Source of the DNA: a virus
Direction: 5' to 3' (one strand)
Length of the DNA stretch: 64,000 nt
IMG/VR virus record: IMGVR_UViG_3300037461_000409
Coordinates: 1-64,000 of that record
Under the pieces are notes generated by a model, which was given only the letters and a program-made list of their open reading frames with translations, made no database searches and was not told the origin of the DNA. A program made the position numbers and the translations under genes. Positions 1 to 29,330 of the stretch are shown here, in pieces (position 1 is the stretch's first letter; each line of letters opens with the position of its first letter).

Positions 1-3000
1 GTTGGTGAACCCAACGACGCACTGAGCCTCCTCCAGATTGCCCGCGCCCTCGAAGTCATCGTGGAACTGGGTCTCGTCCTCGTCCTCCTCGTCTTCGCCC
101 TTCTTCTTCGGGCCCCTGCCCGGGGGCGTGAGAATCAGCCGGTCTTCGAGCTTGCAGAAGCGGTCGATGAACTCTTCGCTGTTGCGCACGCCGATGTCGA
201 TGAACGCCTGGGGGTCGATGTGCTGGAGCATGTTGAACACCTCCAGCGGAGAGTTTTTGGTCGGCGTCGCAGTCAGCAGGTACACCCCGTTCGACGGGTC
301 CTGCTCCCGGACATTGTGCGCCATGTGCTGCATCTTGCGGGCTTGCTTGGACTGGCCCGAGCCGCCAAGGAACTTGGGGTTCTTCCCGAACCTGGACCGC
401 GCGGCGTACAAATTCTTGTAGCAGTTGTGGACCAGCACTCCCTCGGCAAAATAGGTGCGATGGTCATCTACTTCTAGGTTGAAAACCACACCGCCTGGGC
501 ACAGCCCTCCAAACGTTCCATCACCTGTCGGTTCGAGAACCTCAACACTCGCCACCCGCCTTGGCTCAAGAACCTGTCCTTCTTCTGGTCTTGGGCCCGC
601 CGGATATGGGATCGATGCGATTCTCCGTCCACTTCCACGGCGATCATCAGCCCCGGATGAGCGATGTCGATCCGTCCCCGCTGGCGGTGCCATTCCTGGA
701 CTCGCGTCAGGACCAGCATCTCCTTGCACCATTCGCATCGGGCCTTCATAGCTACACCTGTTTTTGTAGAGACTATCCCCTACAAGAACATCCCGAGCAA
801 GAACGTATCCATCGGGCGTGAAGATCGGATGTGCTCCCGTGCAAATCACGGTTGTCCCATCGTCGAGCGTCAAGCGCCGCAAGCTGTCGGGAACCTGAAT
901 TTGGACGTTGGCAACGCGAGCCATGACAACGCGGCCCGTGGCGTGATCGAATGCACTCACAAGATCCCCGCGGCGCAGCGTCTCGATTGGTCGGCCGTCG
1001 ATCAGGGTGCCGGAAGGAAAGCAATGAGCCTCATCTGCGATCAGGGTGTCGACCCCCAGATCCTCCCAGAACACCATGTCCATCTGGTGCTGGAACTTCT
1101 GCTGGAGCTTGTCCTGGGCCCAGGACGCCTTGAGCTTCTCGATCCGCTTGTCGGCCGTCTGCTGCTGCTTCGAGCCCTCGACGATCTTGTCAATGCGAGC
1201 GCCGCGCTGGTACCAGAAGTCCTCTTTCTCATAGCGTTCGATGGTGTCGTGCTTGAGCGGGATTCGCTCGAAAGCGGGCTTGGTGCAGACGATCAGGTCA
1301 TACTCGTTCTGCTTGACCGAGGCCAGCTTGCGGTTGCGCTCGGTATCATCGTCCGAGGCGGTCGACCAGCTGTTGGCCTCGACGTACTTGTCAAACGCTT
1401 CCCCGGATAGGCCCTGAGCCCGGGCTTCGGTCTCGGCCTTCTTTTTCGCCGCCCGTGACTGCGCGCGATGCTCGCCTATGACCAGCACGCGCGAGCCAGG
1501 AAACAGGGTCTCGATCTCTTCCTTCCAGTTGGTGGCGACGCTTTTCGGCACCACTACCATCGGCCGGCGGGCGAGCCCCTGCTGCTTGCGCAAACGCGCG
1601 AGCAAAATCGCGATGAAGGTCTTTCCCAGGCCCACGTCCTGACCGAGGATCCCCCTGCCGGTCTCGGCCGCCCAACGGACAGCGGTGTTCTGGTAGTCGT
1701 GCGGCACCACGCCCGTGGCTATTCCCTCAAGCCCCAGGGGGTCGCCGCTGTACTCGCGCCTGAACTCGGCGTTGAACGTCCGGTTGTAGAGCTCCTCCAG
1801 TTTTCCCCGGAGGTCGCTGGCCTTGATCCACTCATTGAAGCCCTTTTCAACATGCTCCTCCACGTCCCGGCATTTCTCTTTCTTGAGCGAAAGCCGGTTC
1901 ATGTACTTGAGCCAGTCGGTACCATCCGAGGAATGTCTGGCTACGTCTCCCGCGGCGTTCAGGACTTCGAGCGTGTAGACCCCCTGGTCATAGACCAGAC
2001 GCACTCGCTTGCCTTCCTCGCGCCATCCCAGGGCCTGCTTTTTCCCCTCGGGCGTGTTCAGCCAGCGGTTGAACCAGTCCAGGGGCATCCAGCCCATGAC
2101 CCGCAGCTGGAGGGGGATGTCATCGATGGAGCGACGCCTGGTATCCAGCCGCTTCCGGATAAGGTCCACCTGTCGTTCTACCTGAGCCCGTTCAGATCCC
2201 TCCAACCCGGCCATACGGGTGGTCTCGCGGTCCAGCTTCTCGTAGAGGTTCCCCGTGAGGTAATCCTCCATGTGCTGGATCGCGCCGTCGGCCGTGCCAT
2301 CGGTGGCGTAGTCGCCCGACTTGAGCAACCGCGAACGCGCGTCGTCTTCGCTTTCCCACCCTTCCCAGTTGTGCTGCAGATCCTCGAACGGGACATACCC
2401 GCGGTTGCGGCGCGCGGTGTAGGCGGCTACCGACAAGAGGTCGGCTTTGTCCACTTCCGCGGCCTTGAGCGTCACGGCCGCGTCCTTCGAGAGCAGATCC
2501 GATAGCTCGCCGTTGGAATCGACGCAGGCCATGAAGTCGATCAGCGTCGGGGCGCTCTTGGAGAGCACGCCCAGGGCTCGATGAGAACCGGGGATACCGT
2601 TCTCCTTCACCCACGCTCGCACCTTATCCGCCACCCGACGCCGAATTGCGCGGGACTTGTAGAACTCTCCCGCGTCGCGGGCGCGGATAAGCTCCTGAAG
2701 CTCAACCGCGATCTCGTGCGCCTGTTTGATTGCGGCGTCACCGCTCTTGGTGATTATCTGACTGACATCGTCCACCGACTCCATCAGCGTCCACTTCGGC
2801 GGTTCGCCGATGTAGATGTAGCGTCTGCTGTCGATGGTCTGGGTGTTCCCCAGCGCCGGCGGCACGGCCGCCACGTCGATGTCCGCCTGGGCGGCCTGGA
2901 GCGAGACTTTCATCTGCTCGATCTCGCCCAGCTGATCGGCGGTGACTGGCTTGGCCGCGGGGTCGACGTACTTGCTGTCGATCTTGGCCTTGGTTAGGTC

Positions 3001-5790
3001 GCGCAGCGCCGCCGGGACCTTGTCCGCGTCTCCGATCACGGTCGCACGCCACCCGGTTTCGTCCGCGGTCAGGGCCTTGCCCAGAATCCGATCCGGATGC
3101 TTCTCGAAGTAGTCCCCGTCTACTAGCTGCTGATCCCAGCATCCCAGACCCTCCATCACCCCCTGCAGCTCCCCGCGGGCTTGGGAGTAGGCCAGGGCCC
3201 TCCCCGCCAGATCGTCGCGCTTGCGCACTACCAGCACGTCCGCGCCAATGCCACAGTGGACATGAGCGAAGATGTCGTTGGGCAGCCTGAAAGCGTCCAG
3301 TACCTCGGCCCGGGCGAGCAGGCGCTCGCGGAAGTCGCAGGCTCCTGGAGACCGGTTTCCCATCACCCCGCCATGGATCAGCAGCACCGCCACACCGCCG
3401 TCCTTCATGTGGTCGAGGCTGGTGTCGATGAAATACTGATCGGCGCTCTTGTACTCGGGCTTGTGCCGCGGGATGTCCCCGGTCCGGGTGCAGTAGGGGG
3501 GGTTGGCGATCACGGCATCGAACTGGGGTGGGGTGCCCATGCGCTCGATGGTGAACTGCTCGAACGCCTTGCTCTCTATCGTATGGCCCTTGTGCGCGTG
3601 GAGCACCTCGGCCACGGCCGCAGCCTGGTCGTCGAGCTCGACGCCCGTGACCTTGACCCCCTTGGGCGCGGTCTGCAGAAACACTCCGCTGCCGCACGAT
3701 GGCTCAAGCACCGTCTGCACGTTCTGCTGGTAGGCCCCCATCACGTCCCACATGGCCTCGGCGATGTCCGTCCGGGTGTAGAACTGGTTTAGGTCACCGC
3801 TGATGCCGCCCTTGCCCGTGTAGCTCGCGACCTTCACCGCCTCGGCATCGGTCAACCCGCGGCCCTCGGCCCGGGCCTTCATCACGATCTTGACCGCCTC
3901 GTCATTGGCTTCACGGCGCTGGCCCTTGGTCCGGTCCTTGGACATGGCCTCCGCGACCTGCTCCTCCTGTTTCTCCTGAGCCGGCTGGGGCGCGGGAACG
4001 GGCTTAGGCGCTTCCTCGGGGTCGCCCGGCTCGGGCGCGTGCTGGATTGCCTGCTTGTCGGGATACCAATACTCGTAGTGGTCCCCGTGCCGTCGGCGGT
4101 ACCCGCCGTGCTTGCCGCGGGGGATCATCTCCCATCCCCCCCCGGGGGGGCGCGCGGCGCCGAACCCGAACATCCCCAGCTGACGTGGGTTGGCTGCCCG
4201 CCGGGCCTTTTCAAGGTCCAGGATCAGACGCGGTCCGTGGAGGTCAAGCACCAGGCGCATGCCGCCGTGGAGCATGCTCTTGATCACCGTCGGAATCTGG
4301 TCTTCTCCCTTGGAAGCCTTCTCACGATGCTTTCGCTCCACTTCTACTTCCTTGGCGATGATCTCCGATGCTGGATGTTTCTTCTTGTCGACATTGACCC
4401 AATGCCCGTCCTGGGTGTGGTTCCACCACTGGCGGTAGGCCATCGGCTGCCGATCCTTCCAGCTGATGATCATCCGGCGATCCCGCCCCTGGGTGAAGAT
4501 CGTGTCGGCGTGCTTGTCGGTCCTTTCGACCACACGCCAGTGCGCTGGGATGTTCAGTGCCTCGCGCAGTCCCTGGGCGGTAGTCGGAATCTCTCCGTGC
4601 AGTTTTTCGGCCTGGTAGAGCGCCTCCACCGCCGCCGCGAACCTGTCCTTCATCTCCTCCGGACTTCCCGACATCCTCGAAGCAAAAGCATCCACAACCG
4701 CCCCGCGGGCCATGCCAACGTCCTCGTGCTTGAGCTTGCCGGCCTCCACCATCGTCCTCACTCGGGCAAGCCGATGCTCGCGGATGTGCTGACGTCCCTT
4801 GTCCGACACGACCACCATCACATTGCCCGGACCAAAGTGAGCCCGCCCGGTGGTGCCCCTCTCGGTGACGCGCAGGTACCCCTGGTCGATCAGCCGCGCG
4901 TACTTCCGCTCCTCCACGTTGACCTGTCCCCAGTTGGCAAAGTCGAACAGCGTCTTCTTCTCTTCGTCAGTCAAGCTCTCCGGAACTGCGGCGGGCGGCT
5001 CTCGCAGCTGACGGGCTCGATCAACAGCGGCAGCGTAGGATGAGAACCCGCCTTCCACCTTCCCCCAGTTTCCTCCGGGCGGCCTGGCATCCAGTCGGAA
5101 GCTCTTGGGCGCGCCCGAGCCTGGGATGTGCTCGCTCTGCACCCGGTAGAGCGTCGGCCCTTTTTCTCCAAGCATCATCTGCTGGCCGCTATGGCCGCCG
5201 CCGCGAGGCTTGACCGGGGCGCCAATGGCGCGGTGGACCTCCACCTGTTCTTCGTAGGTCGTGGCGGTGTAGCGGGGCTTGGAAGTCGGCCGGATCTTGT
5301 TCTTGGGCCCCTTGTCCGTGTAGGTCGTGACCGACTCACCCACGGGCACGTACTCGAACACCTGGCCACCGGGCGCCATCTCCCGGTCCTCCAGCGTGGC
5401 CGCCGCGAGCTCTTTGGGATTGACCCACTGGACGATCTGGTAACCGTGAGGCGCAAGGTCAGAGAACTTGCTCACCGCCCGATGCGTCCGCTTGAGCTCC
5501 GCTCGCGGGATCGCCGCCGGAGTCGGTGGCCCCGCTGGCGGTGCGGGAGGCGGATTCGACTCCTGCACCACAACCGGTTCCTTGGGCGCCGCCGACCCGG
5601 ATCCGGCATCCCCTGGGTGCGGGACGCTGGTCGTTCCGGTATCGAAATACCAGTAGATGTACCCCGCCCCATGGCGCTTGTGGTAGCCACCGCGCTTCGA
5701 TCCGGGAATGGGAGAGAAACCAGCCGGTGCCTTTGCTCGGCCGAACAGACTGAGTTGCTCGGCCTTGATCAGATCCAGCAACAGACGCAT
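1..5790 (-). CDS. Giant DarB-like polyvalent protein (N6-adenine DNA methyltransferase + SNF2 helicase), intein-containing, 3' end outside the window
   Basis: Manual translation from ATG at 5790 (TGATG overlap with the upstream stop) stays open to position 1, so it is absent from the ORF track. Motifs: YTGKGG..LNQFYT, VLEPSCGSG (~3700), ANPPY (~3500), QDVGLGKT (~1630), VVVPKSV..NW, LGVDTLIADEAH (~1030), LLTATPTKNSPLEVFNML (~270). Confidence 0.9.
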   Translation of the reverse strand, partial: MRLLLDLIKAEQLSLFGRAKAPAGFSPIPGSKRGGYHKRHGAGYIYWYFDTGTTSVPHPGDAGSGSAAPKEPVVVQESNPPPAPPAGPPTPAAIPRAELKRTHRAVSKFSDLAPHGYQIVQWVNPKELAAATLEDREMAPGGQVFEYVPVGESVTTYTDKGPKNKIRPTSKPRYTATTYEEQVEVHRAIGAPVKPRGGGHSGQQMMLGEKGPTLYRVQSEHIPGSGAPKSFRLDARPPGGNWGKVEGGFSSYAAAVDRARQLREPPAAVPESLTDEEKKTLFDFANWGQVNVEERKYARLIDQGYLRVTERGTTGRAHFGPGNVMVVVSDKGRQHIREHRLARVRTMVEAGKLKHEDVGMARGAVVDAFASRMSGSPEEMKDRFAAAVEALYQAEKLHGEIPTTAQGLREALNIPAHWRVVERTDKHADTIFTQGRDRRMIISWKDRQPMAYRQWWNHTQDGHWVNVDKKKHPASEIIAKEVEVERKHREKASKGEDQIPTVIKSMLHGGMRLVLDLHGPRLILDLEKARRAANPRQLGMFGFGAARPPGGGWEMIPRGKHGGYRRRHGDHYEYWYPDKQAIQHAPEPGDPEEAPKPVPAPQPAQEKQEEQVAEAMSKDRTKGQRREANDEAVKIVMKARAEGRGLTDAEAVKVASYTGKGGISGDLNQFYTRTDIAEAMWDVMGAYQQNVQTVLEPSCGSGVFLQTAPKGVKVTGVELDDQAAAVAEVLHAHKGHTIESKAFEQFTIERMGTPPQFDAVIANPPYCTRTGDIPRHKPEYKSADQYFIDTSLDHMKDGGVAVLLIHGGVMGNRSPGACDFRERLLARAEVLDAFRLPNDIFAHVHCGIGADVLVVRKRDDLAGRALAYSQARGELQGVMEGLGCWDQQLVDGDYFEKHPDRILGKALTADETGWRATVIGDADKVPAALRDLTKAKIDSKYVDPAAKPVTADQLGEIEQMKVSLQAAQADIDVAAVPPALGNTQTIDSRRYIYIGEPPKWTLMESVDDVSQIITKSGDAAIKQAHEIAVELQELIRARDAGEFYKSRAIRRRVADKVRAWVKENGIPGSHRALGVLSKSAPTLIDFMACVDSNGELSDLLSKDAAVTLKAAEVDKADLLSVAAYTARRNRGYVPFEDLQHNWEGWESEDDARSRLLKSGDYATDGTADGAIQHMEDYLTGNLYEKLDRETTRMAGLEGSERAQVERQVDLIRKRLDTRRRSIDDIPLQLRVMGWMPLDWFNRWLNTPEGKKQALGWREEGKRVRLVYDQGVYTLEVLNAAGDVARHSSDGTDWLKYMNRLSLKKEKCRDVEEHVEKGFNEWIKASDLRGKLEELYNRTFNAEFRREYSGDPLGLEGIATGVVPHDYQNTAVRWAAETGRGILGQDVGLGKTFIAILLARLRKQQGLARRPMVVVPKSVATNWKEEIETLFPGSRVLVIGEHRAQSRAAKKKAETEARAQGLSGEAFDKYVEANSWSTASDDDTERNRKLASVKQNEYDLIVCTKPAFERIPLKHDTIERYEKEDFWYQRGARIDKIVEGSKQQQTADKRIEKLKASWAQDKLQQKFQHQMDMVFWEDLGVDTLIADEAHCFPSGTLIDGRPIETLRRGDLVSAFDHATGRVVMARVANVQIQVPDSLRRLTLDDGTTVICTGAHPIFTPDGYVLARDVLVGDSLYKNRCSYEGPMRMVQGDAGPDASPGMAPPAGTDRHRSSGADDRRGSGRRIASIPYPAGPRPEEGQVLEPRRVASVEVLEPTGDGTFGGLCPGGVVFNLEVDDHRTYFAEGVLVHNCYKNLYAARSRFGKNPKFLGGSGQSKQARKMQHMAHNVREQDPSNGVYLLTATPTKNSPLEVFNMLQHIDPQAFIDIGVRNSEEFIDRFCKLEDRLILTPPGRGPKKKGEDEEDEDETQFHDDFEGAGNLEEAQCVVGFTN
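424..1023 (-). mobile_element. Intein (200 aa) inserted immediately after helicase motif II (DEAH)
   Basis: Begins CFPSGTLI, has block B ICTGAHPIFT, and ends VFNLEVDDHRTYFAEGVLVHN followed by +1 Cys (421-423). Removal restores DEAH-CYKNL. Confidence 0.93.
474..749 (-). CDS. DUF559/Vsr-like endonuclease nested out of frame inside the intein
   Basis: RIDIAHP..MIAVEVDGESH......DQKKDRFL...GWRVLRFSN matches the DUF559 pattern. Frame differs from the intein. AGGTG lies 5 nt before the ATG. Confidence 0.8.
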   Translation of the reverse strand: MKARCEWCKEMLVLTRVQEWHRQRGRIDIAHPGLMIAVEVDGESHRSHIRRAQDQKKDRFLSQGGWRVLRFSNRQVMERLEGCAQAVWFST

Positions 5791-11935: not shown

Positions 11936-12526
11936 CTACGTCTGCCAGCGCCCCAACCACTCAATTGCCACCTTCGCCGCCTCGGACTCGACGTACCCCT
12001 GTATCACAAGCCCGGCCCGCAGCGCCATGGTCGCCGCAGCCTGGCAGATGTCCGCTTCCGAACAGGCGTAGCTCTTGAGCGACCTGGCCCGGGACAAAGC
12101 GAAGTCGTAGGGGTTGAACTTGCCGTTGGACATCCACCACTCGATCTCCATGTCCGAGCCATAGGCTTCAGCCTCGTATCCGGCGCGGTGGGAGCTCGAA
12201 GCCAGGTAGCGCGTGTCGTAGACCACCCATCCCTCGCGGTCGCCCTGCACCACATGCGTGTGCTCGTGGACCGCCACCCGGAGTTGTTCTGGCAACGTCC
12301 AGATCGGCGTCGCCTGGCCGACCGAGAACGGGGTGTAGATGGTCCTGCCGACGGTCGTGACAAAGCGCTCCATGAACTGGTCGCGCTCCTGGATGTCCAG
12401 CGTGTCCAGCAGGGCCGCCGCCGCGCGCATCATTTCGGACGTGTTCTTGGGAGAGACTTGACTCCCAAAGCGCTGCTGCATATGCCCCCACAGGCCCGTA
12501 ACCATCTGTGAGCCGATCTCGATCAT
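11936..12526 (-). CDS. Zincin-like metallopeptidase
   Basis: TTVGRTIY, HEHTHVVQ and YEAEAY motifs. Confidence 0.7.
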   Translation of the reverse strand: MIEIGSQMVTGLWGHMQQRFGSQVSPKNTSEMMRAAAALLDTLDIQERDQFMERFVTTVGRTIYTPFSVGQATPIWTLPEQLRVAVHEHTHVVQGDREGWVVYDTRYLASSSHRAGYEAEAYGSDMEIEWWMSNGKFNPYDFALSRARSLKSYACSEADICQAAATMALRAGLVIQGYVESEAAKVAIEWLGRWQT

Positions 12527-12753
12527 TTTCCGCTCACACACCGACAACCGGCGTCGGTCTCACCGCACGACCATCGGACGGGCACGGCATCCCTGGCGGG
12601 ACGGACCTTGGAACAATCCATGGCCCGCTGCCACTTGCTGTTTGAGCCGCACAGCTCAAGAACGCTGCCGTTGCATCGGGTGGAATTGGGCATCTGACAC
12701 GGGGCCCCGCAGGCGGCTCCGAGGAGGGCCATGGCCACTGTCACCACCTTCAT
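12523..12753 (-). CDS. Small Cys-rich lipoprotein
   Basis: MKVVTVAMALLGAAC lipobox, RC.G..LELC...W....DC. ATGA overlaps at both ends. Confidence 0.65.
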   Translation of the reverse strand: MKVVTVAMALLGAACGAPCQMPNSTRCNGSVLELCGSNSKWQRAMDCSKVRPARDAVPVRWSCGETDAGCRCVSGK

Positions 12754-13682: not shown

Positions 13683-14066
13683 TTAGCTGCTGCCGTAGTA
13701 ATCCGCCAGCCCCTGGGCTCGGGCCTGGCGCGCGAGGCTTTCTGCCCCGAGCTCGCCGTGGATGGAAACCGAGAACGACACGCGCCCCCCGGGCCAGGCC
13801 GCAACCCACACCGTGGCTCTCCCGCGACGCTCGACTCGCCAGACGCCGCCGAGGTCTGCGGGGTCGGCCTGAACCACAGCCTCTGTCCGGGGCTTCCCCA
13901 AGTCGGCCTCCGTCTGGTCGCGCCAGGCGACGGACGCGTCCAACGCCTTGCGCTTCCCGCCGTGCAGCCGGTCGGAGAACAGCTTGGAGTGGGTGCGTCC
14001 TCGCCAGCGCACCCGGACGAACCAGCCGCGGTTGCGGCCGTAGTCAAAGCGGCTAATCGACTTCAT
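13683..14066 (-). CDS. AP2-like DNA-binding protein (tandem domains, no nuclease domain seen)
   Basis: GWFVRV..RGRTHSKLFSD..HGGKRKAL..A.AWRD and WVAAW...SFSV..HGE..A..LA..AR. Confidence 0.7.
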   Translation of the reverse strand: MKSISRFDYGRNRGWFVRVRWRGRTHSKLFSDRLHGGKRKALDASVAWRDQTEADLGKPRTEAVVQADPADLGGVWRVERRGRATVWVAAWPGGRVSFSVSIHGELGAESLARQARAQGLADYYGSS

Positions 14067-14250
14067 CCCGGTCCCGATCTTCCTCGCCCCAGCACGGACA
14101 TCCTCGGCAGTGGTGTTCGTCGCAGACAACGCACCTTTGCCACCGGCCCCAGGCCCCGCAGCCAGGGCAGGGAGTACAGCACATGCCGTCGTCGGGCGCG
14201 TAGGTTTGGCCACAGCCGGGGCACCGGGCGGTGTAGCTGAAGTCGCTCAT
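14053..14250 (-). CDS. Small Cys-rich zinc-finger protein
   Basis: Multiple CxxC pairs, ATGA coupling. Confidence 0.55.
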   Translation of the reverse strand: MSDFSYTARCPGCGQTYAPDDGMCCTPCPGCGAWGRWQRCVVCDEHHCRGCPCWGEEDRDRDEVD

Positions 14251-14447
14251 GGCCGCTCGCCGAACGCCAGATCCAGCGCCGACGCCAGGGAGTCAGCGCG
14301 CCATTCCTCGCCATCCATCCGTGCCACATGGGCCTCGCCGTTGGCACCAAGAGAGAAGCTACCCAGCAGGCGCTTGGTGCGCTCCTCGCGAATGACACCG
14401 AACGTCTCACTCCGATCCCAGGACTCGACCACCAACTGGGTCCTCAT
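14247..14447 (-). CDS. Hypothetical protein
   Basis: GGAGG RBS, ATGA overlaps. Confidence 0.6.
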   Translation of the reverse strand: MRTQLVVESWDRSETFGVIREERTKRLLGSFSLGANGEAHVARMDGEEWRADSLASALDLAFGERP

Positions 14448-14719
14448 GTTTCCTCCATGCTCCAGCCCTTGCGGTTCAGAGCCCGCTCGACCCGCTCAAG
14501 CTCCTCGATCTGGGCGTGCTGCTCGGGGGAGATCACGAAGCCCGCGTGGACCACGGTTCCAACGTAGTCCGGGCGATGCAGCTGATCGTCCAGCCGCACG
14601 CTGTAGGCGGCCACGTCCAAGTACGTCGGGCTGAGCATCCTGCGGTAGTTGACTGTCGCCGCGCGCCAGCGGTCACCGACGTAGGCAAATACCCTGTCTC
14701 CCGTATTGAACCCGCTCAC
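14444..14719 (-). CDS. Hypothetical protein (SH3-like beta barrel)
   Basis: FNTGDRV..W..ATV..YSVRLD. AGGAGG RBS. Confidence 0.6.
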   Translation of the reverse strand: MSGFNTGDRVFAYVGDRWRAATVNYRRMLSPTYLDVAAYSVRLDDQLHRPDYVGTVVHAGFVISPEQHAQIEELERVERALNRKGWSMEET

Positions 14720-14779
14720 AGTCCCCTCCTATGGACGCCCGCCGTAGAGCTTGAGCATTTCCTGTGGCTTTGTCATGCG

Positions 14780-15880
14780 TCACTTCTCGGGCTGCGGATC
14801 CCAGTATTCGACCAACTCGAATTTGATCAACTCCGATTGTCCGGTCTGTCGACCAGCCGCGGGGGAGAAAGAACTCCGCGCCATACGCAAGCACCTGCGT
14901 AGCCACCGCTCCAATTCCGCGGGGGTCATGAAGTTCACGGTCGGAGCGCTAAAGACAAATGGGATCTCAGTGCCGGGCGGAAGCGTCTCGAACCACTTGA
15001 GACCAAACCCACCTGACCTGGTGCCCGCTCCATTCTTGGGGCTACCAGCGATCTGCACTGCAGGCCGGTGCTGCATGACCACCTTGACAGGCGGCAGCAG
15101 CTCGGTCGGCTCGACATAGAACAAGTTGGTCATCCAGGGGTTGCACTTGAGAATCTTGTCGCGCGATCCATAGTGGGCTGAGTTGAGATGCCACTCCAGA
15201 AAGCCGGTGAAGTTCCTCGACCCGATCATGATCCCGCCGTTTGGCCCGCGGTCAAAGCACAGGGGATAGTCGGCGGGATCCCAGTCGCTGGCATCGAAGG
15301 TCTTGTTGAACTTGGATTCCTTGATCTGCTCGATCAATCCGGCCGAATACGGATATCCGCCACGGATCTCGCTGATGAGCTTGACTGTGATTCTGAACGT
15401 GGCCCAGTTGTCCGGGTGGCTAATCTCCTTCCCCGTGTCTCGACCGCCAGGCTGGGCCTCCAGGGCGTATGCCAAGGCCATGCCCGCCGGATCCTCCTTC
15501 AGGCGCGCCAGGAGTTTGTCCACCTGCGCAATCTCCAGAGAACAGTTGTACTGCAGCTTCTTCGTCGAGTAGACACGATCCTTGCCCTCTCTGTTTGCGG
15601 CCAGAAAGTCTTTCTTACGGAGCGCCTCCAGAACCCGGCTCATCGTCCCCGGGTGAACCACGCTGTTGAGCTGGTCCTTAATCATCTGCACGATCTCGAT
15701 GCAGGTCTGCGCCCCGCGAGCCTGCACACCATAGAGGCCGAGCAGCCAGAGCTGCTCCCAGTTGTCCTTGGTGAAGCGCCGACCCTCAAGTTCTTCGACT
15801 GTCTTGGCGCTCTCGCCATTGCCCTTTGTCGGGATCTTTGGCGGCGCCTCCTGTTTCTCGGTTTCCTTCTGGATTCGCAT
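14780..15880 (-). CDS. Winged-HTH + RAMP/Cas7-like fusion protein, solitary (no other cas genes or CRISPR array seen)
   Basis: N-terminal GTMSRVLEALRKKDFL..REGKDRVY (wHTH). The C-terminal part has RAMP-ordered motifs FRITVKLISEIRGGYP, FDRGPNGGIMIGSRNFTGFL, LFYVEP, HRP, WFETLPPGTEIPF, ELERWL and a divergent G-loop SFSPAAGRQTGQ. Confidence 0.7.
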   Translation of the reverse strand: MRIQKETEKQEAPPKIPTKGNGESAKTVEELEGRRFTKDNWEQLWLLGLYGVQARGAQTCIEIVQMIKDQLNSVVHPGTMSRVLEALRKKDFLAANREGKDRVYSTKKLQYNCSLEIAQVDKLLARLKEDPAGMALAYALEAQPGGRDTGKEISHPDNWATFRITVKLISEIRGGYPYSAGLIEQIKESKFNKTFDASDWDPADYPLCFDRGPNGGIMIGSRNFTGFLEWHLNSAHYGSRDKILKCNPWMTNLFYVEPTELLPPVKVVMQHRPAVQIAGSPKNGAGTRSGGFGLKWFETLPPGTEIPFVFSAPTVNFMTPAELERWLRRCLRMARSSFSPAAGRQTGQSELIKFELVEYWDPQPEK

Positions 15881-15897
15881 TCTCCCGCTCTCCTTTT

Positions 15898-16180
15898 GTG
15901 CCCGCTTCAAAAAGCGAACACCTCATTCAGTCACTCAACCCTTCGCGCGTGCTTGCTTGCCTCCACACAGCCCTACCGCCTATCGGACCAACGGACGAGC
16001 TATCCGTCCTGCCCGCCTTCTCTCGTGCCGCCCGACCTGCAGCCAGCCGTACCTCCGTTGCCCCTCGCCTTCCAACCATCCCTTCCGACCATCGTCCCAT
16101 CATCCATCCCTCCGTCCCTCAGATCGCCCCATCCTCCTCGGCCTCGCGCCTTCTTCCTACCGCCCCGTCCCTCCAGCCAT
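15898..16180 (-). ncRNA. Candidate periodic guide-like RNA: degenerate GG-NN part, strict (G-NNN)34 tract, 3' hairpin
   Basis: Intergenic. On + strand 15921-16056, every 4th base is C for 34 consecutive tetramers. Hairpin GTGTTCGCTT-TTTG-AAGCGGGCAC at 15921-15898. Expression as an RNA is inferred. Confidence 0.6.
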
Positions 16181-16187
16181 TGTCACG

Positions 16188-16400
16188 TCATCGAATCTGC
16201 CCCTTCGCTCGGGCCAGTTCCCACAACCCAAGCAGAGCGCCCGGGCCGTTGCCCTCTTCATCGGCCGAGATGCCCAGCACCAGCGCGCTGTCGTCTGGCA
16301 TGTGGAGTTCAACCCACGGCATGTCGTCATCTAACCCAACGTCCACGATTTTCGCTCCGACGAGAAGCCGAAGCGCCTTCAACAGCGATTTCTGGTTCAT
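16188..16400 (-). CDS. Hypothetical phage protein (DEEGNGPG motif)
   Basis: ISADEEGNGPGAL, ATGA overlap at 16397-16400. Confidence 0.65.
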   Translation of the reverse strand: MNQKSLLKALRLLVGAKIVDVGLDDDMPWVELHMPDDSALVLGISADEEGNGPGALLGLWELARAKGQIR

Positions 16401-16687
16401 GCCTGCCACCCGTGCCCGCAGTCGCAGATCATCGCCGATGCCGGACTCGTGCGCCCGCACTTGGGGCAGTCCTTGGCCCTCGGGGGGTTCACTGCCGGCC
16501 GTGACACCCACTCCCTCATCTGCACCATCCGCTCGAACGCCGCCAGCATCGCCGCGGTGTTCTTGGCGGTCCTGCGCGTGTGGATCCAGATGAAGATCGG
16601 GGACAAGAACAGAACCACCATCAGCACCGCCCACAGAACCTTCAGACCGACAAGCGCCGACAGAAACGGACCGATCATGGTGTCCAT
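16397..16687 (-). CDS. Membrane protein with C-terminal zinc ribbon
   Basis: Long hydrophobic N-terminus, CPKCG..CDCG. Confidence 0.65.
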   Translation of the reverse strand: MDTMIGPFLSALVGLKVLWAVLMVVLFLSPIFIWIHTRRTAKNTAAMLAAFERMVQMREWVSRPAVNPPRAKDCPKCGRTSPASAMICDCGHGWQA

Positions 16688-16953
16688 CAGCAGCCCCCCT
16701 TCACCGCGCCCTGCACGCGGTACACCAGCTTGCCCGACATCCTGGGGGCCCTGGCCCGGGCGAGCTTGAATCGCAGGTCATCGGCGGTGTCCCCGTGCTC
16801 GTAGTCTGCCGACGGGAAACTCTCGACCACCACCCCCTGGCGATGAGCAGGGGCCAACACGGAATCCCAGGTACCTTGGCTGTGGTCGAACACCTCCTGT
16901 TCGTCCTGAAGCGCGTGGACAACATCGTACCGGTGAAACACGCAGTTGCACAT
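16687..16953 (-). CDS. Hypothetical protein
   Basis: AAGGAG RBS, coupled to the next gene. Confidence 0.55.
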   Translation of the reverse strand: MCNCVFHRYDVVHALQDEQEVFDHSQGTWDSVLAPAHRQGVVVESFPSADYEHGDTADDLRFKLARARAPRMSGKLVYRVQGAVKGGC

Positions 16954-16998
16954 GCTGGTCTCCTTTGCGCCCGAAGGCGCGGGTTGTTCAGATGGCGG

Positions 16999-17241
16999 TC
17001 AGTCTTCCGGGCCGACGCGCCTGTAGATCTTGTACTCCCGACCGCTCTCGTGGTCGCGGATGGTAAGGCGGTCCATCAACTGCCGCGCGACCAGGCCCTT
17101 GATCAGGCGCCGCACCCGGCTCACGGGCAACGCAGTCCAGGCCGCCAGTTCCGCGGGGGTCTCGCCAAAGAGAGCGCAGCCGAGCAGGCGCGCCTCGTCT
17201 TCCGTGACCTGCTGGGGACCATTCCAGGTCTGAACGATCAT
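16999..17241 (-). CDS. Small winged-HTH protein
   Basis: TPAELAAWTALPVSRVRRLIKGLVARQL. GAAGGAG RBS. Confidence 0.65.
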   Translation of the reverse strand: MIVQTWNGPQQVTEDEARLLGCALFGETPAELAAWTALPVSRVRRLIKGLVARQLMDRLTIRDHESGREYKIYRRVGPED

Positions 17242-17290
17242 CCGGTCTCCTTCTGCCCGAAGGCTCTCGAACCCGAAGGTTCTACTCAAG

Positions 17291-17318
17291 AGTATAACCA
17301 AGCACTGGCGCCGGTCAA
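17291..17318 (-). promoter_or_regulatory. Sigma70-like promoter heading the operon that contains the periodic tract and RAMP gene
   Basis: TTGACC-16 nt-TATACT just downstream of a terminator. Confidence 0.55.
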
Positions 17319-17331
17319 GGGGGGGGTGATG

Positions 17332-17375
17332 AAAAAAAGCCCGGACGCGCGAAGGAGAGAAGGACGCGGCCGGGC
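17332..17375 (-). terminator. Intrinsic terminator with pyrimidine-rich loop
   Basis: GCCCGGCCGCG...CGCGTCCGGGC followed by T7. Confidence 0.7.
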
Positions 17376-17416
17376 GAAGGAAGGCTACTTAGAGTAGGCC
17401 GATCCGGGATTGCCGG

Positions 17417-17632
17417 TCAACCCCGGCGGGCGGCTTTGCCGTCGGCGGTGAGAAGGTATCGGGTATCCCCGGCCTTGGTCGACTCGGCGTCCAGGAATCC
17501 TTTGCCCTTCAGGCTGATCATCGATCTGGCTATCGGGCCCGGGCGACTGCCGAGCTTCTCGGCCATGGTCTTGGCCGTGGCGCCAGCGCCGATGCTGGTC
17601 AGAATGTCCTTCTGGGTCTTGCTCAGTCGCAT
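17417..17632 (-). CDS. Small winged-HTH (MarR-like) protein
   Basis: LSKTQKDIL..TAKTMAEKLG..IARSMISLKGKGFL..YLLTADG. Confidence 0.7.
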   Translation of the reverse strand: MRLSKTQKDILTSIGAGATAKTMAEKLGSRPGPIARSMISLKGKGFLDAESTKAGDTRYLLTADGKAARRG

Positions 17633-17720: not shown

Positions 17721-19139
17721 TCAACCGGCCTGTAGCCGCAGTCGCGCCAGATGGACGTAATTGGGATCTATCTCGACCCCTACGCAATCCAGGCCCAGGC
17801 GCCGGCAGACGGCCAGGGTCGAGCCCACGCCCGCGAACGGATCCAGCACCAGCGCCCCGGGTGGCGCGTGTCGCCGAAGCAGCCGCTCAAGCAACCACTC
17901 GGGCTTCTGCGTCGGATGGTCGAGCCGCTCGTTCCCGCCGCACACTGGCCCCTCGATCAGGTTGTGCGCCTCGGGCGCGCCGGCGTTCTCCCAGGGCATG
18001 AAGTGGTAGCGGTCGCCGCGGGTTGCCCAGCAGACGGCCTCGACCGACGACAGGTAGACGTTCCGGTGGGCCGTACCGGGGTTGGTCTTCTTCCAGATGA
18101 TCGCCCCGCGCCACGTTAGCCCGATGTTCTCGCAGATGAACTTGTACTCGCCGATGGCCTCCAGCGGAGCAAACACCAGAAGCTGACCGCCGTCGACCAA
18201 CAGTGGCGCCGCCTGGACAACCCACCCCACGTCGAGCTTGTCCCACGCGCCGAAGTTCGAGGAGATGTTCCCGCGCGCAACGTGCGCGACCAGGCTCTGC
18301 CGCTGGCCGTATGGAGGGTCGGTCAAGATCAGCTGGAAGGTCCCGTTCTCGGTCCGCCCAAAGAACTGGCGGTTGTCCTCCATGTGCAGAATCCGGCGCG
18401 CCTCGGGCCCGAGTTCCTCGACCTTTTCCTGGCGCTTCGCCTCGGCCTCCTTGGCCCGGGCTTCGAGCTTGGACCGCTTGCGCTCGACGCGCACCTTCCG
18501 CAGCACCTTGCGAACGGCCTGGTTGCGCTTGCTGGCGGTGTCTGATTTCTCAATCTCTGCCAAGTCCCCCCGCGGCAGATTCGCTACCTCGATGCACTCC
18601 TGCACGAACCGCTCGCCCTTGCCAATCTCGCGGGCGATGATCTTCGTCGCTCTCTCCGGCGCGGGATCAGGATTCGCACCCTTCGCAAAGTCTGCTTTGG
18701 TGCGGACGGACTTGCCCTTGCCCGAACCGCGCCCTCCGGTCGCCCCGACTTTCGTCCCGGGGTACAGCTGCTCATGCAGCACCTTCTGTCGCTGGAACCC
18801 GCGGCCCAGTTCGAGCACGTCGAAGTCCTTGCGCGCGACGTTTTCGGCCAGCTGCGCGTGCAGGGCAGACAGCTCGGTCTCGGCCGAGACTTCCACCGCC
18901 AGGACCGGCCGCCCCAGCCGCTGGCAGGCGGTCATCCGCCGAACGCCGGCAACCACCTCCCACTCGCCTTCGATTTTGCGCACGGCGATGGGTTGGATCT
19001 GGCCCTGCTTGGCAATGCTCGAACAGAGGGCGTTGATGTCACCAGCGTCAGACCGGGCCCGCCATCCCACCTTGATCGTCCCCGGATCCAGAGATAGCAC
19101 CGGGTTCTTGTTCGTCGTCTTCTCGGTCGTCATCATCAT
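17721..19139 (-). CDS. ParB-like N-terminal domain + N4/N6 DNA methyltransferase (beta class)
   Basis: GQIQPIAV..VVAGVRR..EN.ARKD, then LILTDPPY, HPTQKP, VLDPFAGVGST. Confidence 0.9.
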   Translation of the reverse strand: MMMTTEKTTNKNPVLSLDPGTIKVGWRARSDAGDINALCSSIAKQGQIQPIAVRKIEGEWEVVAGVRRMTACQRLGRPVLAVEVSAETELSALHAQLAENVARKDFDVLELGRGFQRQKVLHEQLYPGTKVGATGGRGSGKGKSVRTKADFAKGANPDPAPERATKIIAREIGKGERFVQECIEVANLPRGDLAEIEKSDTASKRNQAVRKVLRKVRVERKRSKLEARAKEAEAKRQEKVEELGPEARRILHMEDNRQFFGRTENGTFQLILTDPPYGQRQSLVAHVARGNISSNFGAWDKLDVGWVVQAAPLLVDGGQLLVFAPLEAIGEYKFICENIGLTWRGAIIWKKTNPGTAHRNVYLSSVEAVCWATRGDRYHFMPWENAGAPEAHNLIEGPVCGGNERLDHPTQKPEWLLERLLRRHAPPGALVLDPFAGVGSTLAVCRRLGLDCVGVEIDPNYVHLARLRLQAG

Positions 19140-27391: not shown

Positions 27392-28054
27392 CTACCCGGC
27401 CATGACCTTGACCGCGGCAGTCACGATCTGCGATGCGGCTTCGAGGTACCCCGCCAGCTGGGCCCGAGGCACCCGGCCTTGGGCGATCCTCGTGGCGGTC
27501 GCCCGCATCAGCGCTGGAAGGCCCTGCTCGACCGCCTGGGCGATCTTCTGGAGCACCCCAGCCGCATCCCTTACCACCATCCCTTCCTCGCCTCCTGCGG
27601 GCGTCTCCGGATGGTCGGCCATGACCCCCGCGTTCAGCCCAACGGTGTCTGCCGCAGTTGGCGCCACCGCCTGTTCGGTCGGTTGACCCATCGCTCGGCG
27701 GGCGTCGTTGGCGCTCCGGAGCTCCTCCTCCCCCTGGGCGCTGATCAGGTCGCCTCCCACCCCGATCTCGGGCGGGATGTACAATCCACCTCCGCGCGGC
27801 TGCTGTGTTGGCACGGCTGGCATGGGGGCGCCCGCGGGCGCGATCAGCGGCTGACCGGCCAACGCCGCCTGACGCGCTTCGGTCTGCCGGGCGAGGTCTC
27901 GCTCGAACGCCAGGCGCCTGGTCGCCGTTGACGGATCCGCGTCTCCTCCCCACGATCCAGGTGGCAAAACGGTTGGTGCTTCGGGGCTCATAATTGCTCT
28001 CCTGATTCTGTTGTAGATCCTGGTTATCACTCTCATTTTCGGAAATGTAGCCAA
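27392..28054 (-). CDS. Hypothetical protein
   Basis: 220-aa ORF, start uncertain. Confidence 0.5.
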   Translation of the reverse strand: MATFPKMRVITRIYNRIRRAIMSPEAPTVLPPGSWGGDADPSTATRRLAFERDLARQTEARQAALAGQPLIAPAGAPMPAVPTQQPRGGGLYIPPEIGVGGDLISAQGEEELRSANDARRAMGQPTEQAVAPTAADTVGLNAGVMADHPETPAGGEEGMVVRDAAGVLQKIAQAVEQGLPALMRATATRIAQGRVPRAQLAGYLEAASQIVTAAVKVMAG

Positions 28055-28079
28055 CCCGATCGGTTGTTCATTCTGCTGA

Positions 28080-28550
28080 CTAGGGATCCAGCCGTTTCAG
28101 CCCGGAGACCACCGCCACACCCACCCTGCAGGCAGGGCAGTAGTCCTCCCTCAGACGCACCCCCTCCACCCCCGACGGACGGAGGATCAGCAGCCATCCC
28201 CTGGGTGCTTTTTCATCCAACAACCACGTTGGGGCGCAACCACCCTTGGCACGGGCTTCGAGCTTCATGCCACAGTTGTCGCACCGGATATGAGGCGGCC
28301 CGGGCTCCAGCCCAAACCGGGCCATGCTCTGTCCCGCTCCACATTGGTAGCTCATCGATACCCCATGTCCCGCAGGTTTTGCCTCCACCGCCAGGCCGCC
28401 ATCACCCTCGGGAACCACCGCCACACGATCCGTGACAGCAGCCACTCCCGATGGCAGTAGGGGCAGGTGCGGTTGACCGGCCAGGCCGTCGGCGCGCCGC
28501 AGCTGATGCACCTCATGGAACACCGTCCGGGTTATCACGGTCGCCCCCAT
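28080..28550 (-). CDS. Hypothetical Zn-finger protein
   Basis: CDNCG...APRGW...DYCPAC. Confidence 0.55.
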   Translation of the reverse strand: MGATVITRTVFHEVHQLRRADGLAGQPHLPLLPSGVAAVTDRVAVVPEGDGGLAVEAKPAGHGVSMSYQCGAGQSMARFGLEPGPPHIRCDNCGMKLEARAKGGCAPTWLLDEKAPRGWLLILRPSGVEGVRLREDYCPACRVGVAVVSGLKRLDP

Positions 28551-28884
28551 CGTTTCCCGTTTCCTCTGGGCCTTCCGCCCGGCCGGACCATTGGAGGCAG
28601 GCGGGATAGTTGTCGGTAACCACCGTGGGCTTCTCATTCTGCCGCGGGAAGACGCACACCAGACCCTCGGTCACGGCATCGTCGGTTACGGTCAGCATCC
28701 TCTTCTCGCACCACCGGCAGGTCCCGCACCGGTCTTCTTCTGGCCAGAGCACGCCCGGCTTCGGGTCGCTGTAGTAGCCCCGGCAGTCGCTGTCACAGAG
28801 CCCTCCAGCCATCGCCAGGGGCACGCTCCGGCCTCGCGGGGCTTTGGTCCTGCCACAGGTCGTGCAGGTCACTCTGTCTGGCAT
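28513..28884 (-). CDS. Cys-rich hypothetical protein
   Basis: CTTCGRTKAPRGRS..C..DC.GY, then CGTCRWCE module. AAGGAGG RBS. Confidence 0.6.
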   Translation of the reverse strand: MPDRVTCTTCGRTKAPRGRSVPLAMAGGLCDSDCRGYYSDPKPGVLWPEEDRCGTCRWCEKRMLTVTDDAVTEGLVCVFPRQNEKPTVVTDNYPACLQWSGRAEGPEETGNDGGDRDNPDGVP

Positions 28885-29330
28885 TCGGTCCTCCTTGGAA
28901 ACTCCCACGGCGCGGGGAGCGGGCGCACCAGACGAAGGTCGACCAAGAACCGTTGCCGCCGGAAGTCGGTCACCCAAACGCCGGCCCAGTGGGCGCCATG
29001 GAGCTCGGGCGGGAACTCCACGACCGCCCGTGGCTCGCTCGCGGTCAGAATCTCCACCTCGACCCCTGGCTTGAGCACCCGGACCGCCCGGGCGTAGAGC
29101 GCCCATGGTGCCAGCCCCTCACCCTGGGCCGGCTGCCGGTAGACTCCACGGCCGTCGAGCTCGAACAAGAAGCGTTCGGCCACAACCTCGTCGGGTCCGG
29201 GTAGCGGCGGATCCTTCCACTCGGAAGTTGCCGGTTTCATCAGTGCCACCACCACGACCGGCGGCGGACACCTGTCAGGCAGGTCCAGGAACTCGATCCA
29301 GCCGTCGGACCACACCAGCTGCACCCTCAT
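28869..29330 (-). CDS. Hypothetical protein
   Basis: MRVQLVWSDG start, ATGA overlap. Confidence 0.5.
   Translation of the reverse strand: MRVQLVWSDGWIEFLDLPDRCPPPVVVVALMKPATSEWKDPPLPGPDEVVAERFLFELDGRGVYRQPAQGEGLAPWALYARAVRVLKPGVEVEILTASEPRAVVEFPPELHGAHWAGVWVTDFRRQRFLVDLRLVRPLPAPWEFPRRTECQTE

What the first reader, a model, noticed from the sequence alone, without database searches (positions are those of the whole stretch)
14780..16180. Candidate CRISPR-free RNA-guided system: solitary wHTH-RAMP (Cas7-like) gene paired with a 4-nt-periodic non-coding tract
Seen: a 366-aa ORF whose C-terminal ~200 aa carry RAMP-ordered motifs (FRITVKLISEIRGGYP, FDRGPNGGIMIGSRNFTGFL, LFYVEP, WFETLPPGTEIPF, terminal G-loop) and whose N-terminus is a winged HTH. 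It lies directly downstream, on the same strand, of a ~280-nt intergenic tract with strict G-NNN periodicity and a closing hairpin. No CRISPR array, cas5/6/8/10 or cas1/2 was seen in 64 kb. Established: Cas7-type RAMPs polymerise along RNA with a fixed nucleotide step. Inference: each subunit grips the invariant G and displays the variable triplet for target pairing, giving a nuclease-free programmable binder (for example a repressor of competing phages or host genes), with the wHTH adding DNA contact or autoregulation. From memory (unverified here), viral single-RAMP systems with 5-nt GGY-NN guide RNAs (VIPR) have been reported. A 4-nt G-NNN register with a wHTH fusion would be a different code.
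Basis: partly seen in the sequence, partly recalled or inferred. Interest (0 to 1): 0.95.

Follow-up and report, generated by a model that had tools for sequence, protein, structure and literature searches.

The report
Four-base-period VIPR-like phage guide system
An uncultured wetland phage encodes a lone CRISPR-type (Cas7-like) RNA-binding protein fused to a DNA-binding domain, beside a 257-base non-coding stretch with G at every fourth base; relatives in other phages carry the same kind of stretch, so it looks like a four-base-step cousin of the five-base VIPR guide-RNA systems described in 2026, though its targets and reading rule are unknown.

Summary
On the minus strand, 16177-15921 has G at every fourth base, including 34 uninterrupted GNNN units. 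This is the strongest period-4 signal in the window by far. A 10-bp hairpin closes the tract just before the ribosome site of a 366-aa gene (15880-14780).

A confident AlphaFold model (pLDDT 87) shows an N-terminal PadR/MecI-like winged helix and a C-terminal Cas7-type RAMP domain. The protein has 114 relatives and none matches a RAMP or Cas family model. In 7 of 8 lineages I could fetch, a GNNN tract lies beside the gene on the gene's strand. No tract of that strength occurs in 857 kb of control DNA.

Between two loci with 94% identical proteins, the flanks are conserved and the tract is replaced. One relative has a CRISPR-like array of covarying hairpins separated by GNNN tracts.

Every published VIPR array has a 5-nt period. 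This family has no detectable sequence similarity to SUSP1-type Vipr, no accessory gene and a fused wHTH. I read it as a new 4-nt-register variant of the VIPR kind.

Transcription, protein binding, targets and the pairing rule are not shown. The scan noted the same kind of system earlier in two other phage genomes.

The parts
14780..15880 (-). wHTH-RAMP gene, 366 aa (P0001), stop codon included
   Evidence: ORF and ATG with AAAGGAG upstream. It has 114 relatives, mostly full length at 340-420 aa. AlphaFold model pLDDT 87.2.
15431..15772 (-). N-terminal winged helix-turn-helix domain (aa 37-150), PadR/BlaI-MecI-like
   Evidence: VIA-align Z 8-9 to PadR-like regulators, MecI and IscR. Weak Pfam Penicillinase_R match, E 0.012, aa 64-117.
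14783..15412 (-). C-terminal Cas7-type RAMP domain (aa 157-366)
   Evidence: Foldseek top PDB hits are all Cas7-family proteins (Cas7-11, Csm3, Cmr4, type VII Cas7), E about 1e-6. VIA-align Z 9-11 to Csm3, Cmr4 and type IV Csf2 over aa 157-366. Nearest viral models are stand-alone ~200-aa phage RAMPs.
14981..15079 (-). beta-hairpin with Gly-rich tip (aa 268-300), candidate RAMP thumb, ending in the invariant Y/F-E298
   Evidence: Strands 268-275 and 291-300 with a lower-confidence tip between them. E298 is invariant in 78 sequences. Calling it the thumb is inference.
14840..14875 (-). glycine-rich loop (aa 336-347), family motif R-[GS]-x-S-P-A-R-G-x-x-x-G before the last strand
   Evidence: Column counts over 78 sequences: S339 75/78, R342 72/78, G347 77/78. 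It sits between helix 320-332 and strand 349-359.
15890..15896 (-). ribosome-binding site AAAGGAG
   Evidence: Read from the sequence.
15898..15921 (-). closing hairpin, 10 bp (two G-U pairs), loop UUUG, starting at the last tract unit
   Evidence: Present in both the MFE and centroid folds.
15921..16080 (-). GNNN tract, phase B: 40 units, 34 of them uninterrupted (16056-15921)
16066..16177 (-). GNNN/GGNN tract, phase A: 28 units with runs of 13 and 9, in a different phase from B
16188..16400 (-). upstream small gene (70 aa from the ATG at 16400) whose stop abuts the tract; same strand, so read-through transcription is possible
   Evidence: ORF list and sequence. No sigma-70-like promoter was found between it and the tract.

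Best explanation
This is a phage-borne, CRISPR-independent RNA-guided system of the VIPR kind, built on a 4-nt register instead of 5.

Proposed mechanism: the 257-nt G-every-fourth-base stretch is transcribed with, or just ahead of, the gene. The Cas7-like RAMP domain of the 366-aa protein binds it one protomer per GNNN unit, holding the fixed G and leaving some or all of the three variable bases free to pair. The resulting filament recognises a complementary, probably gapped, sequence in a competing mobile element or in the host and blocks it. The fused PadR/MecI-like winged helix supplies the duplex-DNA contact, or filament pairing, that separate Vap proteins supply in some VIPR types. Because the tract is also the gene's 5' leader and ends in a hairpin next to the ribosome site, loading may feed back on translation.

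Shown here: the two folds; the conserved same-strand partnership of protein family and tract; replacement of the tract between near-identical loci; structured hairpins bounding tracts; a viral setting without cas genes.

Inferred: transcription, one protomer per 4 nt, which bases pair, the nature of the target, and silencing rather than cleavage.
For: 1. Fold. The AlphaFold model has pLDDT 87.2. aa 157-366 match Csm3, Cmr4, Csf2 and Cas7-11 (Foldseek E about 1e-6; VIA-align Z 9-11). aa 37-150 match PadR/MecI wHTH regulators at Z 8-9.

2. Nearest viral models are lone ~200-aa phage RAMPs. The nearest ESM Atlas clusters are viral unnamed proteins of 180-217 aa, at feature score 0.94 and TM 0.65-0.70.

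3. Tract statistics: see the observation check.

4. Partnership. I recovered homologue loci with a degenerate motif. The strongest periodic signal in each is G at period 4, on the gene's strand, next to the gene.
- L010: 20 units upstream.
- L020: 15+10+8 units upstream.
- L015 (same as L065): 15, 13, 13 and 8 units downstream.
- L037 (same as L018): 18+8+8 units downstream.
- L056: 20+11 units downstream.
- L059: 12 units downstream.
No period-4 runs lie on the opposite strand near these genes, and no period-5 arrays.

5. Pooled logo of 387 units: G 90% at position 1, and near-free composition at the other three positions.

6. Hypervariability. L010 and L020 encode 94% identical proteins. Their upstream flank, leader and RBS align almost perfectly. 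The ~230-nt tract between them is unalignable, yet keeps the G period in both.

7. Array architecture. L015 has five copies of a ~48-nt hairpin (19 pairs, 4 with compensatory double changes) separated by GNNN tracts. G002 has 8 copies of a conserved head hairpin, each followed by a looser period-4 G tract.

8. No neighbouring gene is conserved across lineages, so protein plus tract is the whole conserved unit.

9. Precedent. VIPR Vipr-vrRNA filaments bind one protomer per short repeat and silence dsDNA targets. My periodicity method recovers period 5, and not period 4, at the SUSP1 VIPR locus.
Against: No RNA evidence: only the source DNA run holds the sequence.

No natural target was found. 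The own genome gave nothing under seven pairing rules. The 1.4 Mb of fetched DNA gave nothing. Exact IMG/VR scans under three rules gave nothing. blastn against isolated phages gave nothing.

There is no detectable sequence relationship to type II Vipr (hhalign probability 0.5%). Kinship with VIPR therefore rests on fold and analogy.

The window's tract (about 64 units) is several times longer than characterised vrRNAs (9-16 units). A 4-nt step per RAMP protomer has no structural precedent: Cas7 uses 6 nt and Vipr uses 5.

The hairpin is 3' of the tract here but 5' of each tract in L015 and G002, so processing polarity is unclear.

In the G001/G002 lineage the periodicity is loose, with no strict run of 8 or more beside the gene.
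Confidence: 0.6

Rival explanations
1. The tract is a non-guide RNA partner. It could be a cis-acting leader or scaffold that the RAMP domain coats to autoregulate its own translation. It could also be a protein-loaded RNA lattice or sponge that has no sequence-specific target.
For: In the window, L010 and L020 the tract is the gene's own 5' leader. In the window it ends in a hairpin a few nt before the RBS. No target was found.
Against: In four lineages the tracts lie downstream of the gene. In L015 they form an array with conserved hairpins. The three non-G positions are free, and the tract is replaced wholesale between near-identical loci. That pattern is expected for specificity-carrying sequence, not for a fixed regulatory leader.
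Confidence: 0.15
2. The RAMP domain is a Cas6-like processing or handle-binding protein. It recognises the hairpins and cuts the array, and the periodic G serves some other partner or purpose. In this reading there is no polymerisation with a 4-nt step.
For: Hairpins bound the tracts, with covariation in L015. RAMP folds include Cas6 endoribonucleases (established knowledge).
Against: The top 50 structural matches to the RAMP domain are Cas7-group proteins: Csm3, Cmr4, Cmr6, Csf2, type VII Cas7 and Cas7-11. None is Cas6 or Cas5. No other conserved protein is present that could use the periodic RNA.
Confidence: 0.08
3. The periodicity acts at the DNA level. It could be a slippage-prone hypervariable cassette, or a periodic operator bound by the wHTH on duplex DNA. 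The RAMP domain would then do something unrelated to the tract.
For: Phase slips and short duplicated units occur, such as GGCT GGCT and GCAA GCAA. A wHTH domain is present.
Against: The G strand is the gene's sense strand in every lineage with a tract. Decay of a tetranucleotide repeat by slippage would not keep one base and free the other three. Four bp is not a helical repeat. Tandem Repeats Finder sees no repeat in the tract beyond one 13-nt duplication (16068-16093).
Confidence: 0.06
4. The tract is a chance or compositional artefact of a purine-rich, G-rich spacer.
For: The region is 47% G.
Against: Even at 47% G, 34 consecutive phased G's have probability of about 7e-12. The other three phases hold 23-60% G. 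Controls show nothing comparable. The feature recurs beside distant homologues.
Confidence: 0.01

Closest known systems
VIPR systems (Vipr RAMP protein plus vrRNA; types I-VII; Escherichia phage SUSP1 type II). bioRxiv 10.64898/2026.04.26.720920 and 10.64898/2026.04.26.720927
   Same: Both are phage-borne. Both have a lone RAMP-fold protein outside any CRISPR-cas locus. Both have adjacent same-strand non-coding tracts of very short tandem units, with fixed G and hypervariable positions, placed upstream and/or in downstream arrays and bounded by a structured element. In both, the variable parts are replaced between close relatives.
   Different: The unit is 4 nt (G+NNN), not 5 nt (YNNGG, NNNGG, YNNNG or NNNNG). 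The protein is 366 aa with a fused PadR/MecI-like wHTH, against ~195 aa. hhalign finds no similarity to type II Vipr (probability 0.5%). No vap gene is conserved. The window's tract has about 64 units, against 9-16. The 1-nt-skip rule and dsDNA silencing are untested here.
Non-canonical VIPR-like arrays from the Evo-PIN periodicity survey (bioRxiv 10.64898/2026.10.21.760802)
   Same: These are divergent short-period arrays beside Vipr-like folds, found by periodicity rather than by sequence.
   Different: All of them have period 5 (GAC/NN, CAC/NN, WGT/NN, TGH/NN). The survey reports periods 60-79, 18 and 5, plus a few at 10, 8 and 7, and none at 4.
Class 1 CRISPR backbone proteins of the Cas7 group (Csm3, Cmr4, Csf2, type VII Cas7, Cas7-11)
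   Same: These are the best structural matches to aa 157-366, sharing the RRM core, a C-terminal G-rich loop and a beta-hairpin insert. They polymerise on guide RNA with a fixed nucleotide step (established knowledge).
   Different: The step is 6 nt there. Here there is no CRISPR array and no other cas gene. No Pfam, NCBIfam or PADLOC Cas model matches. The setting is viral.
PadR and BlaI/MecI winged-helix repressors, and the WH-like Vap proteins of VIPR types II, VI and VII
   Same: The N-terminal domain shares their fold. Vap proteins with WH/HTH-like domains accompany Vipr as separate genes.
   Different: Here the wHTH is covalently fused to the RAMP. Its ligand is unknown.

Membership tests
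VIPR | Lone RAMP-fold protein (RRM core, G-loop, thumb) outside any CRISPR-cas locus | tested here: met
   The fold matches Cas7-group RAMPs. The G-loop motif is conserved. No array, no Cas1 and no other RAMP in the 98.8-kb record. The thumb is assigned by inference only.
VIPR | Sequence membership in the Vipr family (PSI-BLAST family of X1U2U4 / SUSP1 Vipr) | tested here: not met
   hhalign of 78 family sequences against 30 type II Vipr sequences gave probability 0.5%, E 0.11. Only type II was sampled, and RAMPs diverge beyond sequence detection, so deep kinship is not excluded.
VIPR | vrRNA made of pentanucleotide repeats (YNNGG or NNNGG/YNNNG/NNNNG) | tested here: not met
   The period is 4 in the window and in the homologue loci, with no period-5 signal. 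The SUSP1 positive control gives period 5.
VIPR | Short tandem units with fixed G and hypervariable positions, beside the gene on its strand | tested here: met
   Replacement of the tract between near-identical loci.
VIPR | Conserved structured element capping the repeat tract (3' tail or pseudoknot) | tested here: inconclusive
   The window has a 3' hairpin. L015 has a covarying hairpin repeat and G002 has a conserved head, but both lie 5' of each tract. No pseudoknot was tested.
VIPR | Predominantly viral or proviral location | tested here: met
   The window, G001 and G002 are IMG/VR virus records. L015 and L037 carry PHROG families. A motif scan of 185,579 species genomes found no member.
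VIPR | Accessory vap gene in the operon | tested here: not met
   No neighbour gene is conserved across lineages. A wHTH is fused to the RAMP instead.
VIPR | vrRNA expressed and co-purifying with the protein as a filament, one protomer per repeat | not testable with these tools
   This needs sRNA-seq, pull-down and cryo-EM.
VIPR | Non-contiguous pairing to dsDNA (1-nt skip) with natural targets in competing elements | tested here: inconclusive
   No target was found under 0-skip, 1-skip or two-of-three-base rules. The databases may simply lack the target.
Class 1 CRISPR-Cas Cas7 (Csm3/Cmr4/Csf2) | Cas7-type RAMP fold | tested here: met
Class 1 CRISPR-Cas Cas7 (Csm3/Cmr4/Csf2) | Match to curated Cas7/RAMP sequence models | tested here: not met
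   No RAMP or Cas7 model matched: Pfam, NCBIfam, PADLOC.
Class 1 CRISPR-Cas Cas7 (Csm3/Cmr4/Csf2) | CRISPR array and partner cas genes in the locus | tested here: not met
PadR / BlaI-MecI winged-helix regulators (N-terminal domain only) | wHTH fold with a C-terminal helix | tested here: met
   VIA-align Z 8-9 over aa 37-150. The Pfam Penicillinase_R match is below its cut-off (16.4 against 22.6 bits).

The most novel reading that the evidence does not exclude
A second, independent short-period code for RNA-guided recognition. A RAMP lineage with no detectable sequence similarity to Vipr, fused to a winged helix, reads a guide in 4-nt steps with one fixed G and up to three specifying bases per protomer. 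That would be a denser code than VIPR's two in five. It would imply a different filament geometry and a different gap rule on the target. It would also show that very-short-period RAMP guides arose more than once, or diversified deeply, in phages.
Probability: 0.5. Interest if true: 0.9.

Novelty: new variant of a known kind. Interest (0 to 1): 0.8.

Why it matters
VIPR was described only in 2026. It is presented there as an ancestral, programmable, PAM-free way to bind DNA, with a fixed 5-nt grammar. A family that keeps the logic (lone phage RAMP plus tandem G-punctuated guide) but changes the step to 4 nt, frees three bases per unit and fuses a DNA-binding domain would matter in three ways:

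1. It would show that the step length of RAMP filaments is evolvable below 5 nt.
2. It would offer a compact single-protein system with higher information density per nucleotide of guide.
3. It would give a second data point for how gapped pairing rules depend on protomer geometry.

It would also extend the set of non-coding elements that repeat finders and CRISPR finders miss. Tandem Repeats Finder does not report the periodicity of this tract.

Tried and rejected
Tools and searches that did not work:
Contigs of the closest relatives (P0002 at 63% identity, P0003 at 39%, and most Logan-only members) could not be fetched.
- The search for related loci with A1 found nothing in the viral, metagenome or genome collections. 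The larger alignments were too divergent for it. I replaced it with my own degenerate motif.
One pattern had too few specified bases. Both were corrected using gap notation.
- AlphaFold on a 3-sequence alignment gave pLDDT 39 and was discarded.

Sequence searches of PDB, PHROGs, Pfam, NCBIfam and PADLOC gave nothing beyond weak wHTH hints. tblastn against isolated phages gave no match. Rfam gave no match at E up to 1 over 14000-17500.

Target searches, all blank:
- own genome under seven rules, no better than shuffled units;
- 1.4 Mb of fetched DNA under three rules;
- exact IMG/VR scans for NNNx, NNx and xNN readings of 8-11 units;
- blastn 'distant' of the tract against phages, chance-level hits only.

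A BLAST search with the concatenated triplets (0-skip reading) against the collections was left out. That derived sequence has no reference and may not be typed.

RNA evidence: no RNA holder was listed. Only the probable source DNA run of a wetland metagenome was found.

Complex prediction with three copies of the RAMP domain returned no verdict.

Only one complex hit appeared, and it was unrelated.

Motif scan of genome contigs: 111 stretches, none a family member.

ESM Atlas query with a SUSP1-type Vipr showed different top-three clusters from those of my RAMP domain. I could not show that the viral look-alikes are Vipr.

I considered and rejected a CsrA/RsmA-type GGA sponge and a TRAP-type attenuator. 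The strict part of the tract is not GGA-rich, and no such protein is conserved nearby.
Full report
**What is there.** The window is the first 64 kb of a 98,779-bp linear IMG/VR virus record, estimated 87% complete. On the minus strand a 366-aa ORF runs from an ATG at 15880 to a stop at 14780, with AAAGGAG a few bases upstream. Between this ATG and the stop of the preceding same-strand gene (16188) lie 307 nt.

Most of that spacer, 16177 to 15921, has G at every fourth base. G frequency by phase is 73/23/32/60% at period 4. Periods 3, 5, 6 and 7 show no phase preference. Period-4 power peaks at 6.6, against a window 99th percentile of 1.16. There are uninterrupted runs of 34, 13 and 9 GNNN units, and no other run in the window exceeds 9.

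The tract falls into two phase blocks: 16177-16066 and 16080-15921. It ends in a 10-bp hairpin (15921-15898). Apart from that terminal hairpin the tract is not more structured than shuffled sequence (z +0.32). Tandem Repeats Finder does not report the periodicity. There is no CRISPR-like array, no Cas1 and no Pfam RAMPs match in the record. Rfam finds nothing.

**The protein.** Word-indexed search found two relatives. An exhaustive profile search found 114, mostly 340-420 aa and matching end to end. None has a Pfam family.

With a 78-sequence alignment, AlphaFold gave pLDDT 87.2; a 3-sequence attempt had failed. Foldseek against the PDB returns only Cas7-group RAMPs at the top: Cas7-11, Csm3, Cmr4 and type VII Cas7, with E about 1e-6 and probability 1.0. 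An independent all-against-all aligner places aa 157-366 on Csm3, Cmr4 and Csf2 at Z 9-11. It places aa 37-150 on PadR, MecI and IscR-type winged helices at Z 8-9.

The family's best conserved sequence is the C-terminal R-[GS]-x-S-P-A-R-G-x-x-x-G loop, plus an invariant Glu (E298) and Pro (P313). The loop lies between the last helix and the last strand, where RAMPs carry their glycine-rich loop. Among viral models the best matches are lone ~200-aa phage RAMPs. ESM Atlas look-alikes of the RAMP domain are viral unnamed clusters of 180-217 aa, ahead of a PF03787 cluster.

I therefore scanned the collections with a degenerate DNA motif spanning P313 to G347 and kept loci confirmed by tblastn. This gave seven further lineages.

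In six of them the top periodic signal in the whole locus is G at period 4, on the gene's sense strand, next to the gene:
- upstream in L010 (20 units) and L020 (15+10+8);
- downstream in L015, the same as L065 (15, 13, 13, 8);
- downstream in L037, the same as L018 (18+8+8);
- downstream in L056 (20+11);
- downstream in L059 (12).

I scored segments with +1 for G and -2 otherwise. Family loci score 18-37 beside the gene. The 857,546 strand-bases of 60 unrelated GC-rich contigs pulled out by the same motif contain nothing at 15 or more.

The seventh lineage comprises two phages of 150 and 172 kb, G001 and G002. It has no strict run. It does carry eight copies of a conserved head hairpin within the 15-kb stretch fetched around the gene. 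Several are followed on the gene's strand by a looser period-4 G pattern, 55-65% G in one phase.

Pooled over 387 units, position 1 is G 90% (A 6%, T 4%, C 1%). The other three positions are nearly free. No protein-coding neighbour is conserved across lineages.

**Signs of a programmable element.** L010 and L020 encode 94% identical proteins. Their upstream gene end, a promoter-like TTGACA region, a ~30-nt leader, the RBS and the gene start all align with few differences. The ~230 nt between them cannot be aligned, yet both versions keep the G period.

L015 shows a CRISPR-like layout. Five copies of a ~48-nt hairpin, with 19 pairs of which 4 show compensatory double changes, are separated by GNNN tracts that start right after each hairpin.

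**Comparison with what is known.** Vipr is a lone phage RAMP that polymerises one protomer per repeat on vrRNAs of 9-16 YNNGG units. It buries GGY, presents NN, pairs with dsDNA while skipping every third target base, and silences competing elements.

All seven published types, and the alternative motifs NNNGG, YNNNG and NNNNG, are pentanucleotide. A later genome-wide periodicity survey reports periods 60-79, 18 and 5 and a few at 10, 8 and 7, but none at 4. A third VIPR paper mentions no other register.

As a positive control I located the SUSP1 locus. The 195-aa gene agp039 carries the published H17, R138 and D177-W178-R179 residues. It is flanked by arrays that my method scores at period 5 and not at period 4.

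A profile of 30 type II Vipr proteins shows no similarity to the 78-sequence family profile (hhalign probability 0.5%). So the family works like VIPR by every structural and contextual test available. It fails three membership features: sequence family, pentanucleotide unit and vap gene. It also adds a fused wHTH.

**What is not shown.** There is no RNA data; no RNA holder was listed. No target was found in the phage's own genome, in 1.4 Mb of fetched DNA, in IMG/VR by exact scans under three readings, or in isolated phages.

Three other tests gave no usable result:
- the oligomer prediction gave no verdict;
- the reverse scan for long GNNN runs in IMG/VR was swamped by microsatellites;
- a motif scan of 185,579 species genomes found no family member.

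That last result fits a phage-restricted family but depends on a single motif. The pairing rule, the number of protomers per unit, the function of the wHTH, and whether the 257-nt tract is one RNA or several all remain open.

**Verdict.** I rate it a new variant of the VIPR kind. My confidence is about 0.6 for the RNA-guided reading and above 0.9 that protein and tract are functional partners. The same kind of system was noted earlier by this scan in two other phage genomes. I found no published description in the held literature.

Noticed in passing
window 17721-19139 (-): A 472-aa fusion of a ParB-like N-terminal domain with a DNA methyltransferase (phrog_67, E 1e-43; ParB PHROGs, E 1e-21), 1.5 kb upstream on the same strand. 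A phrog_67 methyltransferase also sits directly after the GNNN array in L037 (8189-9217). This may be coincidence within phage early regions.
   Followed up: partly
window 16188-16687 (-): Two small genes joined by an ATGA overlap. The first is 96 aa with a hydrophobic N-terminus and a CPKC...CDCG zinc-ribbon-like end. The second is 70 aa and its stop abuts the tract. Neither has a PHROG match.
   Followed up: no
L015 10748-11477 (gene strand is '-'): Five copies of a ~48-nt hairpin repeat (UCAGAA..GGGCCCACGAG..CUCGUGGGCCC..UUCUGA) with compensatory stem changes, each followed at once by a GNNN tract. This is a CRISPR-like array layout without cas genes.
   Followed up: partly
L008 (G002:101000-116000), + strand starts 247, 413, 1657, 1825, 4579, 6387, 6482, 6600: Eight copies of a conserved ~35-nt GC-rich head hairpin within 15 kb around the homologue gene. 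Each is followed on the gene strand by loosely period-4 G sequence. A separate 25-36-nt element (AGATCTTATAGGGCAAAAAG) recurs five times and looks like a phage promoter or RBS module.
   Followed up: partly
L010 about 5030-5070 and L020 about 210-250 (gene-strand orientation): A conserved TTGACA-containing stretch and a ~30-nt leader (GTGGTGAGCGTAGACGGTGTAGGGGTGGTG) lie directly before the hypervariable tract. They are a candidate promoter and 5' handle.
   Followed up: no
L079 (Escherichia phage SUSP1, NC_028808.2) 27499-29511: The published VIPR locus can be read straight from the record. agp039 (195 aa) is Vipr, agp038 (146 aa) is the likely vap1, and period-5 YNNGG arrays lie in both flanking gaps. 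All are annotated only as hypothetical proteins.
   Followed up: yes
L288 about 850-1170 (minus-strand orientation): An IMG/VR contig with a long imperfect 8-nt-period repeat (ACGGCTAA / ACGGACAA-like units). It surfaced in the GNNN reverse scan. No wHTH-RAMP gene is in the 2.7-kb locus.
   Followed up: no
window 11936-12547 (-): A 203-aa protein matching phrog_13834 (unknown function, E 5e-42) with an HExxH-like HEHTH motif, between the lysis-region genes and the small-gene block.
   Followed up: no
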